Assembly (NCBI GenBank): GCA_025830695.1
Contig: GCA_025830695.1_4111.1
Reading direction: 5' to 3' (one strand)
From: a phage
DNA length: 64,000 nucleotides
A program made the position numbers and the translations under genes. This document shows positions 6,998 through 63,869 of this stretch, piece by piece (the stretch's first letter is position 1; each line of letters starts with the position of its first letter). Below the pieces are notes generated by a model, which saw nothing but the letters and a program-made list of their open reading frames with translations, was not told the DNA's origin and did no database searches.

Positions 6998-7192
6998 ATG
7001 ACTGACAAAACATTTTATGATCGTATTATTGAAGACAAGGGAGTTTTTGATAAGGTAGTTTATGACCTAGAACTTATGATCAAAGACGCACCGAACCCCC
7101 GTGTGCGAACCCAAGCAGAATTTGCAAAAACTTATCTTGTTCAAGTTCAAGCAATCTGTGAAGCAATTAAAAAACACAATGATAGTGCTTGA
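6998..7192 (+). CDS. Hypothetical protein (64 aa)
   Basis: Track ORF with GGAG upstream. Confidence 0.55.
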   Translation: MTDKTFYDRIIEDKGVFDKVVYDLELMIKDAPNPRVRTQAEFAKTYLVQVQAICEAIKKHNDSA

Positions 7193-7217
7193 CAGAACTA
7201 ATGTTCTATCCTATAAT
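7189..7217 (+). promoter_or_regulatory. sigma70-like promoter
   Basis: TTGACA (7189-7194), 17 nt, TATAAT (7212-7217). Confidence 0.7.
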
Positions 7218-7261: not shown

Positions 7262-8324
<1,063 letters not shown>

Positions 8325-8335
8325 AATATAGACTT

Positions 8336-10501
<2,166 letters not shown>

Positions 10502-45527: not shown

Positions 45528-45863
<336 letters not shown>

Positions 45864-45864
45864 A

Positions 45865-46047
45865 ATGACACACGAAGAATGGATGTCCAAACAGCATAAA
45901 GAACATGACTGCTTTGGGAATGGCATTCGTCAGGTACATTATGATATATTAAGAGATGAAAATCTTTTCAGGTCATATGTTTTGGATACCAGAAAACCCT
46001 GGTTTATATGCGAACTGGCATTTAGAAAGTCAAATAATCAAAACTAA
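45865..46047 (+). CDS. MTHEEWM mini-protein family, copy 3 (60 aa)
   Basis: MTHEEWMSKQHKEHDCFGNGIRQVHYDILRDENLFRSYVLDTRKPWFICELAFRK (internal ATG of track ORF 45847). Confidence 0.6.
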   Translation: MTHEEWMSKQHKEHDCFGNGIRQVHYDILRDENLFRSYVLDTRKPWFICELAFRKSNNQN

Positions 46048-46063
46048 ACAAGGAATACAAAAA

Positions 46064-46282
46064 ATGGAAACAACTTTATTTGAAGTTATTCAATCATTAA
46101 AACCTGAAGATGAGGTTCAAGTACTACTACATGGTTATCGTGTAAAAGGTACTGTGGTTTTAGTCAATGATACAACATTGGTTATTACAGAAACAAACCC
46201 ATATGATAGTAATCAACTTGCCAATATCCATATCGATATCACTGGAATTATTGGTGTCGGTGTATCTAAAACACTTGCATAA
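46064..46282 (+). CDS. Hypothetical protein (72 aa)
   Basis: Track ORF 45956..46282. ATG 46064 follows AAGGAA. Confidence 0.55.
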   Translation: METTLFEVIQSLKPEDEVQVLLHGYRVKGTVVLVNDTTLVITETNPYDSNQLANIHIDITGIIGVGVSKTLA

Positions 46283-46335
46283 ATCATTAATTCATTATAT
46301 AATGATTATCACTGGTTCTAGATGAGGATAATATT

Positions 46336-46608
46336 ATGCATTTTGAAAAATTCAACGTAAATCGTAACACACGCATTGAAGTTCTTTATGAAACTCAAGA
46401 CACCATTAGTATTCGTACAAGTAGTGGGGATGTATATCATGACTGTACGATTGGCTGGGAACAGGGAAGGACGCGTAGTGCAGTATTTGATAATTATCGC
46501 TTTTATCAAGGAGACACTACGATTTGGCCTGAATACGTAGAAGATATTGCGTTTGAAGATGAACATAAAGATGAATTTATCAAATTTAATCCTCAAACTG
46601 AATCATAA
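46336..46608 (+). CDS. Hypothetical protein (90 aa)
   Basis: Track ORF with GAGGA upstream. Confidence 0.6.
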   Translation: MHFEKFNVNRNTRIEVLYETQDTISIRTSSGDVYHDCTIGWEQGRTRSAVFDNYRFYQGDTTIWPEYVEDIAFEDEHKDEFIKFNPQTES

Positions 46609-46612
46609 ATAA

Positions 46613-46742
<130 letters not shown>

Positions 46743-46745
46743 AAT

Positions 46746-46846
<101 letters not shown>

Positions 46847-46848
46847 CA

Positions 46849-47009
<161 letters not shown>

Positions 47010-47013
<4 letters not shown>

Positions 47014-47170
47014 CACATGAAGAATGGATGAATGACATTAATTTTAGATATTCGGGTATCGGTAAATGGCTAAAGTATCATTGGGAATTCATTTCAGAGC
47101 CACATCTGTATGATAAACTTATCAACGATCCAGCATATGAAATGTACTTAATTGAACTACTGGTACGATT

Positions 47171-47174
<4 letters not shown>
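47010..47174 (+). CDS. MTHEEWM mini-protein family, copy 5 (54 aa)
   Basis: MTHEEWMNDINFRYSGIGKWLKYHWEFISEPHLYDKLINDPAYEMYLIELLVRL. The first ~55 nt are almost identical to copy 4. ATGA overlap. Confidence 0.6.
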
Positions 47175-47336
<162 letters not shown>

Positions 47337-47344
47337 AAAAAAAG

Positions 47345-47754
<410 letters not shown>

Positions 47755-47758
<4 letters not shown>

Positions 47759-47784
47759 CTAAATAATTCAGTACTGAGGATATT
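47755..47784 (+). promoter_or_regulatory. Second copy of the promoter cassette (weak -10)
   Basis: TTGACT (47755-47760) + AAATAATTCAGTACTGA. The best -10 is GATATT (47779-47784). Confidence 0.4.
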
Positions 47785-47815
47785 AATATGTTTAAAGATG
47801 AACGTCCAGATTTGT

Positions 47816-47853
<38 letters not shown>

Positions 47854-47859
47854 GAATTC

Positions 47860-48201
47860 CACAATCAGACGTATATGGTGTAAGTTACGTCGATGCAATC
47901 CAGAACAAGATCTCTGGTACTCTAGGAAGTGGTGAATGTTAACCTAGACGGGTTTGATAATTGGACGATAGGCAATTATTACTTGACTAGCAGGTTTAAA
48001 CTAGAGGTGACTATCCTTCACCAAACTGGAAAACCGGATGGACTTTTATTTAAAAGGGTAAGGCGTGGAAATATGTTTACAGAAGTTGCTTTTAGTAGCC
48101 TGTACGCCCCACGTCAAGGTAGCCGAAAGGCAAGTTAAGACGGGTGGTTATAAAGCTGAATTAACAGCGGCGTTTAAAAGCGTCACCATCCATTTTTTTT
48201 T
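47860..48201 (+). ncRNA. Candidate structured RNA or long structured leader (~340 nt), class unknown
   Basis: Lies downstream of a strong promoter and is locally more G+C-rich. No ORF with an RBS. Helices ggcgtgg/ccacgtc (48061-48067 with 48107-48113) and gcc-GAAA-ggc. Terminal stem gggtggt/accatcc (48142-48148 with 48185-48191) followed by T9. Confidence 0.35.
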
Positions 48202-48217
48202 AATTAAAGTTGGTGAT

Positions 48218-49027
<810 letters not shown>

Positions 49028-49051
49028 ACGAAATTACAATAGGAAATTAAA

Positions 49052-49237
49052 ATGCAACTTTTAATTCTTTCAATATTGTATATTATTATAATGGTTCCGA
49101 TATCAATACGTTTAATTACACTTGAACGATTTTTATCGAAACATGGAAATAGATCTATGATCTTAGTACCAATCGGGCTTATATTGTTTGGTATTTTTGC
49201 ATTTATAATGGGAATTAACGCTACATTCATTTCATAG
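49052..49237 (+). CDS. Small membrane protein (61 aa)
   Basis: Track ORF with two hydrophobic segments. AGGAAA upstream. Confidence 0.55.
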   Translation: MQLLILSILYIIIMVPISIRLITLERFLSKHGNRSMILVPIGLILFGIFAFIMGINATFIS

Positions 49238-49246
49238 GAAACAAAT

Positions 49247-49504
<258 letters not shown>

Positions 49505-49512
49505 GAATTTAA

Positions 49513-49914
49513 ATGAAAAAGAATGACTTGATCAAAATGCTTCAAGAAATTGACGGCAATCCAGAGATTGTTATTTGGAATGGATACGTCGATGATTATA
49601 TGAACATCGAAAAAGGCTTGACTAAAATCACTCTAGTCAAAGAAACCGAACAGTTTCTTCAGGGTGCATTAGAGCACGAATGGTGTGAACGTAACAATAC
49701 ATTCGACATTCCAGAAGACCAACGAACCAAGATTGCAGAACGTGCTAAAGAACTGCATAAGAAACGTGAATACGATTTCCAGAACCCATATGTCACTGAA
49801 GACGAATTCAATCGCTGGTACGGTAAAAAGAAATTGATAAAGTATGTCCTTTCACCTAAACTACGTGGTAAGACTTCACTTGGTGTATTCAACGCCGCAG
49901 ACTTAAACTACTAA
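49513..49914 (+). CDS. Hypothetical protein (133 aa)
   Basis: Track ORF with AGGAA upstream. Confidence 0.65.
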   Translation: MKKNDLIKMLQEIDGNPEIVIWNGYVDDYMNIEKGLTKITLVKETEQFLQGALEHEWCERNNTFDIPEDQRTKIAERAKELHKKREYDFQNPYVTEDEFNRWYGKKKLIKYVLSPKLRGKTSLGVFNAADLNY

Positions 49915-49926
49915 GAGAGTATTTAA

Positions 49927-50694
<768 letters not shown>

Positions 50695-50696
50695 TA

Positions 50697-50753
<57 letters not shown>

Positions 50754-50838
50754 AGTAAGAGTAAAAATGAAAGTAAGTAAAAAAACTACCAAGCAGCTTG
50801 AAGAACTTTGTAGTGCTGCACCTATGCCGACTCTTGGC

Positions 50839-50939
<101 letters not shown>

Positions 50940-50951
50940 TATCTTACTTCT

Positions 50952-51041
<90 letters not shown>

Positions 51042-58904: not shown

Positions 58905-59380
58905 TGTTAACAATAGTGTTGTTGGTAAGTCCATTTGTGTATTTTGTGCTGTATAATATTTTTAGTAATGCTAATCATTTTAAATATGCACAAACAATTG
59001 CAAAGCATGAAGGTTTTTGGAATTTTTTCCCAGCATTACTATGCTCATATCTATACCATGAACGCTATTTCATTTTTCCTGAATATAAAAATTATGGTTA
59101 TGATTCTAAAGTAAATGGTATAATTGAGTACTGTATAAGAAATTATCTTAATAATAATGATAACGTCCAAGTAAGAATAGGAAATGGTAATATATCAAGA
59201 ATAGTTTTCATACCTGATATACAAGATCCAATATACTTATATCCATATGATTATAGTATTAGTGTAGGTTGTTCGATACATGGTAGTAAATCTATGTACG
59301 ATTACTTTATCTTACCACCAACACAAATTAGATTAATAGAAAAATATTTGAGGGAAAAGTTTGACAACAAAGATTCTTAG
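58904..59380 (+). CDS. Membrane-anchored hypothetical protein
   Basis: Track ORF. N-terminal LTIVLLVSPFVYFVLYNIF. ATGA-type overlap. Confidence 0.6.
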   Translation: MLTIVLLVSPFVYFVLYNIFSNANHFKYAQTIAKHEGFWNFFPALLCSYLYHERYFIFPEYKNYGYDSKVNGIIEYCIRNYLNNNDNVQVRIGNGNISRIVFIPDIQDPIYLYPYDYSISVGCSIHGSKSMYDYFILPPTQIRLIEKYLREKFDNKDS

Positions 59381-61043: not shown

Positions 61044-61072
61044 TTGACATAACAAATAATATGGAGTACAAT
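61044..61072 (+). promoter_or_regulatory. sigma70-like promoter
   Basis: TTGACA (61044-61049), 17 nt, TACAAT (61067-61072). Confidence 0.7.
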
Positions 61073-61111: not shown

Positions 61112-61372
61112 ATGAAATCTATTCTCGTTGCAGTTAACTTGGTTGCTTCCCCATCTTTCAACTTCAAACAAGTTGTTGCTGATAATCTGAAGAAGATCTG
61201 TCCAAACGCTGAATTAACTTTCTGTGTGTTTGATTCAGAAAAAGTAACTAAAGTTGATCTAAACTATCTTTTGAACGAAGTAAAAAGCGTTTCTGGTGAA
61301 AGTAACTTAAAAGTTCTTCATGATATTGCTGATGATTATGATGATACACTTGTAATTTCGGAGAAATTCTAA
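61112..61372 (+). CDS. Hypothetical protein (86 aa)
   Basis: Track ORF with AAAGGAAA upstream. Confidence 0.6.
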   Translation: MKSILVAVNLVASPSFNFKQVVADNLKKICPNAELTFCVFDSEKVTKVDLNYLLNEVKSVSGESNLKVLHDIADDYDDTLVISEKF

Positions 61373-61377
61373 ATAAA

Positions 61378-61797
61378 ATGTTTAGATTTCTTCAGTACTT
61401 AATCATTAAGTTCTTTGGTTATCATACGATTGAAGGAAAAGCTACACTTGCACATAAAATCTTTGTAGCATTATGTACGGGTGATTATGACGTATTGAAT
61501 AAGTACTGTAAATCGCAAGCATGTATTGATATAATGGCACTTCGTATCTATGAGTGCCAGTTCAATAGATATAATTTTTACCAGTACAGATTTGATAAAG
61601 AAGAATTTGATAGCATCAAAATGCTAAAGAATTTATGTAACAATAAAAAGAATATGCATATATCAGAATTTGTTGCTTTGTATTTTTATTTAAAAAGTTC
61701 ATTGTATATGAACACGATGCAAAGATTCGATACTAGAATTAATGTATTCACCGATAAAGAATTTTATATATACGATAAATTCTTAGATAAGGTTTAA
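61378..61797 (+). CDS. Hypothetical protein (139 aa)
   Basis: Track ORF. Confidence 0.6.
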   Translation: MFRFLQYLIIKFFGYHTIEGKATLAHKIFVALCTGDYDVLNKYCKSQACIDIMALRIYECQFNRYNFYQYRFDKEEFDSIKMLKNLCNNKKNMHISEFVALYFYLKSSLYMNTMQRFDTRINVFTDKEFYIYDKFLDKV

Positions 61798-61798
61798 T

Positions 61799-62296
61799 AT
61801 GACAACTGTTTATATTGATAAACGATTAAATTTATTGATTACCGATTCTAGAGTTACGTCAACTATACCACGAAACTTATTTGGTTTTTTCCCACTAAGA
61901 CCAAAATATCAATATGGAGTTGTTAATCAAAAAACTTTATATGTACATGACCGTTTATTCAGTGCTAGTGGGGTAGTAAGTGAAATTGATAAAGTACTGG
62001 ATTGGTTAATTAATAAAGTACCAGTTATACCTGACAGAAAGTTAAGTTGCCATTGTGTGCTTCTTTCTAAAGATTATGTTATTCATATGATTTTAACTAA
62101 AGGAAAGTTTATTAAAAAACTTGAATATCTACATGAAGACTACACTTTCTTTATGGGAAGTGGTGGAGAATACATGCTAGATGCTGCTATTCATGAAGAA
62201 CATACAACTTTATATGATAAAGTGTTTAGTACTTTCATGGATGTGCACAACCATGATTGCTTCACAGATGATAATATTAATGTATATCGATTTTGA
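61799..62296 (+). CDS. HslV / proteasome beta-like Ntn-hydrolase homolog
   Basis: [21 protein letters not shown] (Thr right after Met). [26 protein letters not shown] vs HslV [41 protein letters not shown] vs LIAIGSGGPYAQAAA. Confidence 0.5.
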   Translation: [165 protein letters not shown]

Positions 62297-62317
62297 TTTC
62301 GTCATTAGGAGATGTAA

Positions 62318-63283
62318 GTGAAAAAGCTTGATTTAAATACAATTGCCGAAGAAGTTCTGGATGAATGTTTTGCTAATGAAGAAGTCAACACACTAGAAGC
62401 CTTAGATTTCGTTGAAGATAAAGATGATAATGAAGGTAAAGTACAAAGCAGTTTCAAATATAATATTACACTTAAGCGACCACCAAATGTTTCCAATGAA
62501 GATCTAATTCGTGATATTCAAGCTGGTATCAATGTAAAGAAAAACACTGAACTGTTAGTTCGTTACAATTATGGACTGATTATTGATGTAGCAAGTAAAT
62601 GTACTTGTTATATCCCATTTGAAGATAAGATTTCATATGGTGTTGAGGGGTTCATGAGAGCACTAAAAACCTTTGATCTTAATAAGAATGTTAAGTTCAT
62701 TACCTATGCTTCTTCTAGTATTTACATGACAGTCTATAACGAAAGTTCTGACGCTAACTATATGGTACACTTCCCACGTTATATGAGTGTTCATAAGATC
62801 AAAGTAAAAAGATTCTGCCAGGAATATATGCGTAAACATGGTGTTCGCCCAACACCTGAAATAATCTCAGAGGGTACTGGGATTGAGATTCAGCATGTTA
62901 ATAATTGTTTATTATTTCAAAGCGAATACACTTCACTGGATGCACCATTAGACGGTGTTACAGATGGTACATTAGGTGACATTATTCATTCACCTGCTTC
63001 TGATTTTAACCTCAATGTTGATAGTATCCGTGCACCTTTACGTTATGCTATCAATGAACTAACTAACGAATTGAGTACTAAAGAACGTGAGATTATCCAG
63101 CGTGTTCATGGTCTAGGTGAATATGAACCTGAAACGCTTCGTGAGATTGCTGATAATGGTTTTGTTGATGATAATGGAAAATATGTTAAATCCCGTTCAT
63201 CAATACACCGAAAGTACAGTGAAGCTATGCAAAAGCTTAAGAAGTTAGTACTTGCAAAAGGGTACGAATACGAAGATTTCTAA
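62318..63283 (+). CDS. Sigma-70 family RNA polymerase sigma factor
   Basis: Region-2-like YGLIIDVASKC...YGVEGFMRALKTFD...KFITYASSSIYMTVYN. Region-4-like LSTKEREIIQRVHGL...TLREIAD...SRSSIHRKYSEAMQKLKK. GTG start after AGGAGA. Confidence 0.7.
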   Translation: MKKLDLNTIAEEVLDECFANEEVNTLEALDFVEDKDDNEGKVQSSFKYNITLKRPPNVSNEDLIRDIQAGINVKKNTELLVRYNYGLIIDVASKCTCYIPFEDKISYGVEGFMRALKTFDLNKNVKFITYASSSIYMTVYNESSDANYMVHFPRYMSVHKIKVKRFCQEYMRKHGVRPTPEIISEGTGIEIQHVNNCLLFQSEYTSLDAPLDGVTDGTLGDIIHSPASDFNLNVDSIRAPLRYAINELTNELSTKEREIIQRVHGLGEYEPETLREIADNGFVDDNGKYVKSRSSIHRKYSEAMQKLKKLVLAKGYEYEDF

Positions 63284-63289
63284 AGAACA

Positions 63290-63316
63290 AGGGTTGGCTT
63301 ATGCCAACCTTTTTTT
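63290..63316 (+). terminator. Rho-independent terminator
   Basis: agggttggc-ttat-gccaacct followed by a T-run. Confidence 0.85.
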
Positions 63317-63317
63317 A

Positions 63318-63346
63318 TGGGATGAAGTAAAAGTTTGTGATATAAT
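63318..63346 (+). promoter_or_regulatory. Promoter, TGTGATATAAT class
   Basis: TGGGAT (63318-63323), 17 nt, TGaTATAAT (63338-63346). Confidence 0.65.
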
Positions 63347-63354
63347 TATCTTGT

Positions 63355-63830
63355 ACAATTCTGTTGGCATGATATTCATGTACCTGATCCACTCGAAAAC
63401 GTAGAGGGCAGTTGAGCAGTCCGACAGTGCGAACAGCAAAAGAAACCCGTTAGATGTGGGCATAGTTTGAACCCCTCACGGCAATGCGGCTGTATAAAGA
63501 ACCACGTTAGGATAGCTGGTGGTTCCTTGATAGACATATAAGGATAACACCTTACGAATTATCTAAGGGAGAGTTATCGAATTTTGTACAGGAAAGTTGC
63601 GTCCAAAATTTGAGTACTCACATTAAGTATTTGATTGCATAGATACTTAATGAAGATACACTATGTTTAAAAGTGTAGACCGTCATATGAAACTGAAGTA
63701 GAGAGAAACAGGATGACCCGCTTTCGCACTCGTTATGAGTAATCTTCAATGCAATAGCTCTGATACCATCAGCGTCAAATTTCCCTCCTTGTGGGGGGAA
63801 GAAAAATCCCTTCCTCAAATCCCGTCAATA
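63355..63830 (+). ncRNA. Candidate large structured ncRNA (~470 nt), class unknown
   Basis: Own promoter and no credible + strand ORF. Locally G+C-richer. Helices include gaaccac/gtggttc (63499-63527), nested gataac-cctta...taagg-gttatc (63543-63578), aagtat/atactt (63625-63648) and ttccctcc-ttgt-ggggggaa (63781-63800). The next promoter is at 63841. Confidence 0.4.
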
Positions 63831-63840
63831 TTAAAAGTCC

Positions 63841-63869
63841 TTGACAGTTATTAATCATTCGCGTAGAAT
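63841..63869 (+). promoter_or_regulatory. sigma70-like promoter
   Basis: TTGACA (63841-63846), 17 nt, TAGAAT (63864-63869). Confidence 0.65.

What the first reader, a model, noticed from the sequence alone, without database searches (positions are those of the whole stretch)
61799..63283. HslV/proteasome-beta-like protein without an HslU partner, directly upstream of a phage sigma-70-family factor
ORF 61799..62296 starts M-TTVYID...[10 protein letters not shown], so a Thr would become N-terminal after Met removal, as in Ntn-hydrolase proteases. It also matches HslV blocks ([26 protein letters not shown] against [27 protein letters not shown], and [11 protein letters not shown] against GSGGPYAQAAA), with a ~20-aa insertion after the first strand pair. 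No AAA+ unfoldase gene is adjacent. The next gene (62318..63283) has sigma-70 regions 2 and 4. Together with the ClpS-like gene at 7779, this suggests the phage manipulates host proteolysis as well as transcription. The link between the two genes is only positional.
Basis: partly seen in the sequence, partly recalled or inferred. Interest (0 to 1): 0.6.

Follow-up and report, generated by a model that had tools for sequence, protein, structure and literature searches.

The report
Phage proteasome-like peptidase beside sigma factor
A giant E. coli phage carries a small, divergent relative of the bacterial proteasome-like protease HslV, apparently switched on early together with the phage's own sigma factor; it belongs to an already described but functionally unstudied class of phage proteasome homologs.

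The parts
61044..61072 (+). Sigma70-type promoter-like site (TTGACA-17-TACAAT, 11/12), the probable start of the transcription unit
   Evidence: It is one of 16 near-consensus sites in the window, all on the + strand. Genome-wide there are 40 such sites, all on one strand, against 2-4 in shuffles.
61112..61372 (+). ORF86, small protein of unknown function (phrog_26969), first gene of the predicted operon
   Evidence: A weak homolog exists in RaK2 only.
61378..61797 (+). ORF139, unknown function (phrog_37211). Its stop lies 1 nt before the peptidase start.
   Evidence: Not detectably conserved in RaK2, Munch, fENko-Kae01 or Hallingskeid.
61799..62296 (+). Divergent HslV/proteasome-beta-like (T1, Ntn) threonine peptidase, 165 aa
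61802..61804 (+). Thr2 codon, the predicted N-terminal nucleophile after Met removal (equivalent to Thr1)
   Evidence: Invariant in 44/44 sequences, all of which start M-T-T. E. coli HslV has the same MTT start and is matured by Met removal (established knowledge).
61844..61846 (+). Asp16 codon (equivalent to Asp17)
   Evidence: Invariant 44/44. Lies at the end of strand S2 in the model. Aligned to HslV Asp17 by hhalign.
61850..61921 (+). Extended S3/S4 beta-hairpin (residues 18-41), about 13 residues longer than in HslV, with a conserved hydrophobic tip (F/L-x-G-x-F/I-P-L)
   Evidence: Strands 18-27 and 31-41 in the model. Conservation of R25, P32 and L33. The paralog and HslV have a short hairpin.
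61931..61933 (+). Lys45 codon (equivalent to Lys33)
   Evidence: 43/44 sequences; the exception is an alignment ambiguity. It immediately precedes strand 46-49, as Lys34 precedes strand 35-43 in the paralog.
61970..61972 (+). Gly58 codon (equivalent to the Gly47 oxyanion-hole position)
   Evidence: Invariant 44/44. Lies at the end of strand 52-58, before helix H1.
62015..62047 (+). Residues 73-83: a short loop where canonical HslV and the phage paralog have helix H2
   Evidence: Model secondary structure compared with the paralog model, which has H2 at 84-104. H2 loss is described for PPH/RPC in PMC8665760.
62156..62164 (+). Gly120-Ser121-Gly122 codons (equivalent to Gly128-Ser129-Gly130)
   Evidence: Invariant 44/44. 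Aligned to the HslV GSG motif by hhalign.
62255..62257 (+). Asp153 codon (equivalent to Asp166)
   Evidence: Invariant 44/44. Lies in the loop after helix H4.
62307..62311 (+). AGGAG ribosome-binding site for the sigma gene, inside the 21-nt intergenic gap
   Evidence: Sequence read directly.
62318..63283 (+). Phage sigma-70-family factor (regions 1.2-4), the only homolog of this sigma family in the genome
   Evidence: Pfam r2/r3/r4. phrog_351 E 2e-60. NCBIfam RpoD_Cterm E 6e-25, below the equivalog cut-off. Single hit in the genome.
63289..63312 (+). Intrinsic terminator (10-bp stem, T tract) 6 nt after the sigma stop codon
7779..8324 (+). ClpS-like adaptor gene. This is context for the proteolysis theme, not part of the operon.
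   Evidence: Pfam ClpS E 2e-5, above the cut-off. phmmer vs E. coli ClpS E 1e-3.

Best explanation
ORF 61799-62296 encodes a divergent threonine peptidase of the proteasome/HslV (T1, Ntn-hydrolase) superfamily. It belongs to the phage-borne branch of that superfamily.

Shown:
- It has the T1 fold.
- The T1 active-site residues are conserved across the family (Thr2, Asp16, Lys45, Gly58, Ser121, Asp153).
- It has no propeptide.
- It is under purifying selection.
- It is absent from the virion proteome of a near-identical phage.
- No HslU is encoded in the genome.

Inferred:
- Host methionine aminopeptidase removes Met1, exposing Thr as the nucleophile, as happens for E. coli HslV.
- Host RNA polymerase transcribes the gene early, from a sigma70-consensus promoter at 61044, on one mRNA with the phage sigma factor. 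That mRNA ends at the terminator at 63289.
- Helix H2 is lost and the neighbouring S3/S4 hairpin is enlarged. In HslV, H2 forms the apical face and pore that HslU docks on and gates. The enzyme therefore most likely works without HslU, as an ATPase-independent PPH-type peptidase.
- It probably cleaves unstructured or specifically recognised proteins during the early takeover phase.

Its substrates are unknown.
For: Fold:
- AF2 model pLDDT 90.9, pTM 0.80.
- Foldseek PDB gives 70 hits at E<=1e-3; the 50 listed are all HslV, proteasome subunits or Connectase.

Sequence:
- phrog_1040 'peptidase HslV family' E 9e-6 for this protein. 25/44 members hit it, best 6e-14.
- Intermediates P0042-44 hit both PHROG families over their full length.
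- The paralog family links to E. coli HslV at hhalign probability 95%.

Active site: of nine invariant columns in 44 sequences, seven are T1 active-site or flanking positions (Thr2, Asp16, Gly58, Gly120-Ser121-Gly122, Asp153). The others are Met1 and Thr3. Lys45 is 43/44.

Selection: dN/dS 0.17 and 0.08.

Architecture: no H2 and a long S3/S4 hairpin, whereas the paralog has H2 and a short hairpin. H2 loss is the described feature of PPH/RPC (PMC8665760).

No HslU: blastp and phmmer on all ORFs of a 98-99% identical complete genome found none. The listed tblastn HslU hits in phages include no Rak2-like phage.

Early operon: promoter and terminator sites. All 40 near-consensus sigma70 sites in the genome lie on one strand, against 2-4 in shuffles. 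The gap to sigma is 21 nt with an RBS.

Non-virion: phAPEC6 gp067c is absent from the 62-protein MS table, and a separate gp21-like prohead protease is present. The fENko-Kae01 ortholog carries no LC-MS/MS note, although neighbouring genes do.
Against: - No biochemical data exist for this or any phage proteasome homolog.
- Sequence-only links to cellular HslV are weak: phmmer and a family profile against the PDB find nothing; hhalign to E. coli HslV gives E 0.002, probability 14%; hhalign to the paralog family gives E 0.013.
- Catalytic geometry and oligomeric state could not be inspected, because no model coordinates or multimer prediction were available.
- HslU independence is inferred from missing secondary structure alone. 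All hosts of these phages have HslU, so use of the host's HslU is not excluded.
- Early timing rests on consensus promoter matches; no transcriptome was found.
- A role in host takeover is conjecture.
Confidence: 0.6

Rival explanations
1. Host-HslU hijack. The phage protein assembles into HslV-like rings that dock onto the host's HslU hexamers, forming a hybrid ATP-dependent protease with altered specificity or titrating HslU away from host HslV.
For: HslV is the single best structural match, with the same MTT N-terminus. The phage encodes no HslU, while its enterobacterial hosts have one (established knowledge). Helices H3/H4, which make ring-ring contacts in HslV and the proteasome, are retained. 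Orphan HslV-family genes are widespread in phages of HslU-containing hosts.
Against: Helix H2 and the short S3/S4 hairpin are lost or remodelled. In HslV these form the apical surface, the pore motif and the HslU C-tail pocket region (established knowledge; see also PMC8665760). Identity to HslV is only 13-19%. Curated HslV models do not hit.
Confidence: 0.18
2. Sigma-linked specific processing enzyme. The peptidase is a sequence-specific protease or transpeptidase, Connectase-like in logic. It would act on the co-expressed phage sigma factor or on host RNA polymerase or sigma70. The arrangement would be analogous to B. subtilis spoIIGA-sigE, where a protease gene sits directly upstream of the pro-sigma gene it processes.
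For: The peptidase-then-sigma order, directly adjacent or within about 2 kb, holds in 7 of 12 lineages, down to about 27% identity. The two genes are the ones retained in all four named relatives, whereas the immediately upstream ORF is not. The insertion sits at S3/S4, the site of Connectase's specificity element. The sigma factor has a roughly 55-residue acidic leader with a partly conserved start.
Against: The whole region is collinear, so adjacency may simply be inherited gene order. The linkage is absent in five divergent members. Munch has an annotated terminator between the genes. Nothing in the sigma sequence indicates a cleavage site, and RaK2 lacks part of the leader. The protein keeps helix H1, and its insertion is a beta-hairpin, not Connectase's two helices.
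Confidence: 0.1
3. It partners with the phage's own ClpA-like unfoldase instead of, or in addition to, ClpP.
For: The genome encodes a 769-aa ClpA-like protein with two AAA+ modules. This is the only unfoldase-type AAA+ protein detected.
Against: The ClpA-like protein keeps an IGM tripeptide at the position of ClpA's ClpP-docking IGL loop. The phage also encodes a ClpP with intact Ser-His-Asp motifs, which is the expected partner. The genes lie about 135 kb from the peptidase gene in the genome. No ClpA-type unfoldase is known to dock on a T1 peptidase (established knowledge).
Confidence: 0.04
4. A non-catalytic relic: a structural or decoy protein that keeps the fold but not the activity.
For: No activity data exist. 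The protein is very divergent from characterised enzymes.
Against: All catalytic positions, and the exposed-Thr start, are conserved across 44 sequences that are otherwise as little as 18% identical. That pattern is hard to explain without catalysis. Purifying selection is strong.
Confidence: 0.05

Closest known systems
[quoted passage not shown]
   Same: Encoded by tailed phages. Compact group-I (HslV-like) proteasome homolog with no propeptide and a conserved Thr1/Asp17/Lys33/Gly47 set. Lacks helix H2. No co-occurring AAA+ partner. Function unknown.
   Different: PPH is described as about 140 residues without insertions. This protein is 165 residues because of a roughly 13-residue extension of the S3/S4 hairpin plus small loop differences. 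Sequence clustering with PPH could not be tested, because no PPH sequences were available to me. The family is very small: 18 representatives among 1.84 billion proteins.
phrog_1040 'peptidase HslV family', the orphan phage HslV-like peptidases (T5-like phages, Aeromonas and Vibrio phages, Geobacillus E3), which includes the second copy in this same genome
   Same: Phage-encoded, starts MT(T/C), conserved Asp/Lys/G-S-G, no HslU in the genome. 25/44 members of the ORF165 family hit this profile.
   Different: The paralog keeps H1 and H2 and a short S3/S4 hairpin, and links to E. coli HslV at 95% hhalign probability. ORF165 lacks H2, links only weakly, and forms its own PHROG (phrog_24804, labelled 'unknown function').
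Bacterial HslV (ClpQ), peptidase of the HslUV protease
   Different: 13-19% identity. No hit to the curated HslV models. No H2, the apical helix and pore motif. Longer S3/S4 hairpin. No cognate HslU gene. Dodecamer formation and ATPase dependence are unknown.
BPH and Anbu (bacterial proteasome homologs without a known unfoldase)
   Different: Both retain H1 and H2. BPH has a long acidic pore loop and Anbu a long C-terminal helix. Both are cellular, not viral.
Connectase (archaeal proteasome homolog acting as a sequence-specific protein ligase)
   Different: Connectase lacks both H1 and H2 and its insertion is two helices. Here H1 is present and the insertion is a beta-hairpin. There is no evidence of ligase activity.
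B. subtilis spoIIGA-sigE (protease gene immediately upstream of the sigma factor it activates)
   Same: Gene order of protease then sigma factor, in one operon.
   Different: SpoIIGA is a membrane aspartic protease unrelated in fold. There is no evidence here that the sigma factor is made as a precursor. This is an analogy only.

Membership tests
T1 / proteasome-HslV Ntn-hydrolase superfamily | Alpha-beta-beta-alpha Ntn fold with the S1-S11 beta core | tested here: met
T1 / proteasome-HslV Ntn-hydrolase superfamily | Thr (or Ser) as the N-terminal nucleophile of the mature chain | tested here: met
   M-T-T is invariant in 44/44 sequences. Thr at position 2 permits Met removal by MetAP (established knowledge). 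Actual N-terminal processing was not testable here.
T1 / proteasome-HslV Ntn-hydrolase superfamily | Asp17, Lys33, Gly47, Ser129 and Asp166 equivalents | tested here: met
   D16, G58, S121 and D153 are invariant and K45 is 43/44. Their positions relative to the strands and helices match. The 3-D geometry could not be measured because no coordinates were returned.
T1 / proteasome-HslV Ntn-hydrolase superfamily | Peptidase activity | not testable with these tools
   Needs biochemistry.
HslV proper (ClpQ; NCBIfam TIGR03692 / PRK05456; Pfam PF00227) | Scores above the curated family cut-offs | tested here: not met
   No Pfam hit and no NCBIfam hit. Only 3/44 relatives touch PF00227, best E 1.3e-3.
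HslV proper (ClpQ; NCBIfam TIGR03692 / PRK05456; Pfam PF00227) | Two apical helices H1 and H2, with the pore motif | tested here: not met
   The model has H1 (60-72) followed by a loop at 73-83, with no H2.
HslV proper (ClpQ; NCBIfam TIGR03692 / PRK05456; Pfam PF00227) | Cognate HslU ATPase encoded with it | tested here: not met
   No HslU homolog in the complete near-identical genome and none adjacent.
HslV proper (ClpQ; NCBIfam TIGR03692 / PRK05456; Pfam PF00227) | Double hexameric ring | not testable with these tools
   No multimer prediction was available.
PPH (Fuchs et al. 2021) | Encoded by tailed phages or prophage regions | tested here: met
   52 phage records, all Rak2-like jumbo phages.
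PPH (Fuchs et al. 2021) | Lacks helix H2 | tested here: met
   One search compared with the description in PMC8665760.
PPH (Fuchs et al. 2021) | About 140 residues, compact, without insertions | tested here: not met
   165 residues, with an extended S3/S4 hairpin.
PPH (Fuchs et al. 2021) | Clusters by sequence with the PPH group | not tested
phrog_1040 'peptidase HslV family' | Best PHROG assignment | tested here: inconclusive
   Hit at E 9e-6 over residues 1-130, but the best family is phrog_24804 (E 2e-103). 25/44 relatives hit phrog_1040.
Connectase | No H1/H2 pair, and a two-helix S3/S4 insertion covering the active site | tested here: not met
Sigma-70 family (neighbouring gene) | Regions 2, 3 and 4 | tested here: met
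   Pfam Sigma70_r2, r3 and r4. phrog_351 E 2e-60. NCBIfam sigma70 superfamily model above its cut-off.

The most novel reading that the evidence does not exclude
The loss of H2 and the conserved hydrophobic-tipped S3/S4 hairpin have turned this proteasome homolog into a partner- or substrate-specific enzyme. It would form a functional module with the co-transcribed phage sigma factor. For example, it might cleave or remodel host sigma70 or RNA polymerase, or mature the phage sigma. That would make it the first proteasome-family enzyme dedicated to transcription takeover, and the first functional context for the PPH-type phage proteasome homologs.
Probability: 0.1. Interest if true: 0.75.

Novelty: new member of a known kind. 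Interest (0 to 1): 0.4.

Why it matters
Proteasome homologs in phages (PPH, AAH, the PHROG 'HslV family') have been catalogued, but none has a known function, partner or informative gene context. The authors of the survey say so explicitly (PMC8665760).

This locus adds three usable facts:
- The gene is predicted to be an early, host-RNAP-transcribed gene that shares an mRNA with the phage sigma factor.
- One jumbo phage carries both a conventional and an H2-less, hairpin-extended version of the enzyme, alongside its own ClpA/ClpP/ClpS.
- The protein is not a virion component.

The phage infects E. coli K-12-type hosts, so these facts make the class experimentally approachable. They do not yet reveal anything mechanistically new.

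Tried and rejected
- **Direct sequence search against the PDB:** phmmer with the protein and hmmsearch with a 15-sequence profile found no HslV or proteasome match. Sequence alone is too weak at this level.
- **hhalign, ORF165 family vs E. coli HslV and vs the paralog family:** the register was correct but the scores were poor (E 0.002 with probability 14%; E 0.013). I did not use these as primary evidence.
- **AFDB50 fold search:** the library was unavailable. I used BFVD instead.
- **PPH reference sequences:** not retrievable from the paper's supplement, so PPH membership stays open.
- **Relaxed PHROG scan for further T1 families:** nothing found.
- **tblastn with the intermediate P0042:** a single hit, in Salicola phage SCTP-2.
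- **Reading the SHEFM2K annotation for partners:** almost every gene is 'hypothetical'. I replaced this with a local scan of an unannotated complete genome.
- **Head-maturation protease idea:** rejected. phAPEC6 has a separate gp21-like prohead protease, and the HslV-like protein is not in the virion.
- **Recent capture of host hslV:** rejected. Canonical HslV matches in the phage collection are bacterial records or short unannotated contigs that look like host contamination, and identity to HslV is below 20%.
- **The 667-aa AAA_28 protein next to distant member P0044 as an unfoldase:** rejected. It is a NadR-type P-loop protein and sits near an NMN transporter.
- **Literature:** no transcriptome for Asteriusvirus or Rak2-like phages, and no functional study of phage proteasome homologs.
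Full report
**1. What is in the sequence**

The window comes from an Asteriusvirus-type jumbo phage of E. coli. It is 99.9% identical to phage SHEFM2K and about 98% identical to PBECO4, 121Q, slurp01 and phAPEC6.

The two are 21 nt apart, and an AGGAG lies 6 nt before the GTG. The conserved N-terminus of the orthologs supports the GTG start.

The 165-aa ORF is a real gene:
- It is found in 52 phage records, all Rak2-like jumbo phages of Escherichia, Klebsiella, Salmonella and Erwinia, down to 29% identity.
- dN/dS is 0.17 against UE-S1 and 0.08 against fEgEco12, although dS is saturated in the second comparison.

The family is tiny. An exhaustive HMMER search of 1.84 billion representative proteins found 18 hits. 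Most GenBank records call it hypothetical. Among the records listed, fEgEco12 and Turkey3 label it as an HslV-type ATP-dependent protease, but the fEgEco12 paper does not discuss the label.

**2. Is it HslV/proteasome-like?**

Sequence methods alone are at their limit here:
- No Pfam or NCBIfam hit.
- phmmer and a family profile against the PDB find nothing relevant.
- hhalign against E. coli HslV gives the expected register (Thr2=Thr1, Asp16=Asp17, GSG=GSG) but only E 0.002 and probability 14%.

Three other lines of evidence are decisive.

(a) PHROGs. The protein hits phrog_1040 'peptidase HslV family' at E 9e-6. 25 of 44 relatives do so independently, with a best E of 6e-14. Three divergent members hit both phrog_1040 and the protein's own phrog_24804 over their full length. 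That gives a continuous chain of similarity. phrog_1040-type proteins link in turn to E. coli HslV at hhalign probability 95%.

(b) Structure. The AlphaFold2 model is confident (pLDDT 90.9, pTM 0.80).
- Foldseek against the PDB agrees.

(c) Conservation. In a 44-sequence alignment with members as low as 18% identity, only nine columns are invariant: M1, T2, T3, D16, G58, G120, S121, G122 and D153.
- K45 is 43/44, and the single exception is an alignment ambiguity.
- These are the T1 positions Thr1, Asp17, Lys33, Gly47, Gly128-Ser129-Gly130 and Asp166.
- They sit at the expected places relative to the predicted strands and helices.

**3. How it differs from HslV**

I compared the model with HslV, and with a model of a second T1-type protein from the same genome.
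- ORF165 has H1 (60-72) but no H2; residues 73-83 form a loop.
- Its S3/S4 hairpin is long (18-27 and 31-41). Asp-to-Lys spacing is 29 residues, against 16 in HslV and in the paralog.
- The hairpin tip is conserved and hydrophobic (F/L-x-G-x-F/I-P-L, with R25, P32 and L33 conserved).
- H3, H4 and the terminal strand are retained.

The survey 'An astonishing wealth of new proteasome homologs' (PMC8665760) describes phage-borne proteasome homologs. [quoted passage not shown] The survey states:
- PPH and RPC are the homologs that lack H2.
- S3/S4 is the insertion site that carries Connectase's specificity element.
- The loop after H1/H2 lines the pore and is regulatory in HslV.
- No genomic context or co-occurring AAA+ partner was found for any of the new homologs.

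ORF165 therefore looks like a PPH-type protein with a hairpin extension: 165 minus roughly 13-24 residues is about 140-150.

BFVD shows about 20 further T1-fold proteins in other phages, several of them jumbo phages (CcrBL9, Noxifer, RisingSun, PhiPA3, RP12). Only the Munch/7t3-type ortholog is structurally close, at TM 0.85.

**4. The partner question**

I assembled a complete, 98-99% identical genome (OR844650.1, 351,992 bp) and scanned all ORFs of 80 aa or more.

There is no HslU homolog. The HslU, ClpX, FtsH and Lon queries all hit a single protein: a 769-aa ClpA-like ORF (genome 155203-157512) about 75 kb beyond the window.
- It has Clp_N, AAA, AAA_lid_9, AAA_2 and D2-small domains.
- It has an IGM tripeptide where ClpA carries its ClpP-docking IGL loop (IGL position from established knowledge).

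The genome also encodes:
- A ClpP homolog (phmmer E 3e-33) with intact Ser-His-Asp motifs.
- The ClpS-like protein in the window at 7779-8324 (Pfam ClpS above cut-off).
- A second T1 peptidase (197 aa from its internal MTCIIAH start). It is a clear phrog_1040 member (E 4e-24) with canonical H1 and H2.

That paralog family occurs in 198 phage records, including T5-like phages, Aeromonas and Vibrio phages and Geobacillus E3.

HslU-like genes do exist in other jumbo-phage lineages (RAY/Ea35-70 group, Miami; ClpX in PA5oct, phage G and Lak phages). None appeared in a Rak2-like genome among the 60 of 181 records listed.

Another jumbo phage, pSal-SNUABM-04, was already reported to carry two HslV genes and no HslU (PMC7823757). 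So 'HslV-like without HslU' is true here, but it is the norm for phages. The ClpA-like protein has its expected partner in the phage ClpP.

**5. Transcription context**

The + strand upstream carries sigma70-consensus promoters in the intergenic gaps:
- TTGACA-17-TATAAT (12/12) at 59361 and 60723.
- 11/12 at 61044, directly upstream of ORF86.
- 11/12 at 63841.

A strong intrinsic terminator lies at 63289-63312, 6 nt after the sigma stop codon.

Genome-wide there are 40 TTGACA-N16-18-TAnAAT sites, all on one strand, against 2-4 in shuffles. Sixteen are in this window.

The simplest reading is an early transcription unit read by host RNA polymerase: P61044, ORF86, ORF139, peptidase, sigma, terminator. 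This is inference from consensus matches. I found no transcriptome for this phage group.

The phAPEC6 orthologs of the peptidase (gp067c), sigma (gp066c) and the paralog (gp345c) are not among the 62 virion proteins detected by MS. That phage has a separate gp21-like prohead protease. The fENko-Kae01 ortholog also lacks the LC-MS/MS note that some of its neighbours carry. The protein is therefore non-structural and made after infection.

**6. Is the link to sigma meaningful?**

The order peptidase-then-sigma is found in:
- The window itself.
- RaK2, Munch and fENko-Kae01 (directly adjacent).
- Hallingskeid (two small ORFs between).
- Metagenomic members P0033 and P0035 (directly adjacent).
- P0036 (2.1 kb apart).

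These are supported.

It is not found within about 4 kb, or within the available contig, for P0034, P0037, P0040, P0042 and P0044.

The whole segment is collinear among the named relatives. The peptidase and sigma are the two genes conserved in all four, whereas the ORF immediately upstream is not. Munch has an annotated terminator between the two genes.

The linkage is real and fairly old, but inherited gene order explains it as well as functional coupling does. The sigma factor is a full sigma70-family protein with an acidic leader that is only partly conserved. Nothing indicates that it is made as a precursor.

**7. Most likely mechanism and rivals**

Best-supported reading (overall confidence about 0.6; the fold and active-site layers are above 0.9, and HslU independence is about 0.5):
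- It is a catalytically competent T1 threonine peptidase.
- Its nucleophile is exposed by Met removal.
- It is made early, together with the phage sigma.
- It probably acts without HslU, because the apical H2/pore element is gone and the adjacent hairpin is rebuilt.

Rivals:
- Hijack of host HslU (about 0.18).
- A sigma- or RNAP-directed specific processing enzyme, in the spoIIGA-sigE or Connectase logic (about 0.10).
- Pairing with the phage ClpA-like protein (about 0.04).
- A non-catalytic relic (about 0.05), which the invariant active site argues against.

**8. Novelty and verdict**

The class of phage proteasome homologs is published, and a PHROG family and a few GenBank records already carry the HslV label. 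Both the identification and the 'orphan' status are therefore not new.

What is new is modest:
- Placement of phrog_24804 ('unknown function') in the T1 superfamily, with structural evidence.
- Its H2-less, hairpin-extended architecture, coexisting with a conventional paralog.
- The predicted early-operon context with the sigma factor.
- The accompanying phage ClpA/ClpP/ClpS set.

I file it as a new member of a known kind, with an architectural twist, and score interest at 0.4.

Noticed in passing
window 7262-7765 (+): A phage-encoded translation initiation factor IF3 homolog (Pfam IF3_N E 6e-16 and IF3_C E 8e-14). It lies immediately upstream of the ClpS-like gene and downstream of a sigma70-consensus promoter at 7189-7217.
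   Followed up: partly
window 8396-8941 (+): A KTSC-domain protein (Pfam PF13619, E 6e-14) directly after the ClpS-like gene.
   Followed up: no
window 2817-63869, + strand (16 sites, e.g. 7189, 25372, 39457, 41864, 50638, 57515, 59361, 60723): Sixteen near-perfect sigma70 promoters (TTGACA-N16-18-TAnAAT), all on the + strand. Genome-wide there are 40, all on one strand, clustered at two regions (about 10-60 kb and 300-320 kb of OR844650.1), against 2-4 expected by chance. This looks like a map of the early regions.
   Followed up: partly
outside the window: OR844650.1 155203-157512 (-), within locus L009: A 769-aa ClpA-like double-AAA+ protein (Clp_N, AAA, AAA_lid_9, AAA_2, D2-small). It has an IGM tripeptide at the position of ClpA's ClpP-docking IGL loop.
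   Followed up: partly
outside the window: OR844650.1 238986-239681 (-), within locus L010: A ClpP homolog (phmmer E 3e-33 vs E. coli ClpP) with intact Ser-His-Asp motifs. Together with the ClpA-like and ClpS-like genes, the phage has a full Clp set of its own.
   Followed up: partly
outside the window: OR844650.1 234180-234770 (-), within locus L010 (= phAPEC6 gp345c): A second T1-type peptidase (197 aa, starts MTCIIAH). It is a clear phrog_1040 'HslV family' member, with a canonical H1+H2 architecture in its AF2 model. Its family is present in 198 phage records, including T5-like phages.
   Followed up: yes
window 45550-51031 (+): A cluster of six tRNA genes (Gly-tcc, Ser-tga, Ser-gct, Met-cat, Asn-gtt, Thr-tgt). 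The stretch at about 46.3-50.4 kb is also where the window differs most from the near-identical genome OR844650.1 (broken or lower-identity alignment, down to 81%).
   Followed up: no
window 62048-62056 and 61946-61948 (Cys84-His85-Cys86; His50): A Cys-His-Cys motif on strand S7, plus His50 and His96, are conserved within the closer family members but not in the most distant ones. This could be a lineage-specific metal or redox site. I could not examine it without model coordinates.
   Followed up: no
window 63313-63840: A stretch of about 530 nt after the sigma terminator with no convincing ORF; SHEFM2K annotates only tiny no-PHROG ORFs on both strands there. No tRNA or Rfam family was found. 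It is followed by another sigma70-type promoter at 63841-63869.
   Followed up: partly
locus L016 4557-6560 (metagenomic contig carrying distant family member P0044): In this 144-kb contig the peptidase homolog is followed by a 667-aa AAA_28 (NadR-like P-loop) protein, with an NMN transporter nearby, instead of a sigma factor. This is a different neighbourhood for the most divergent members.
   Followed up: no
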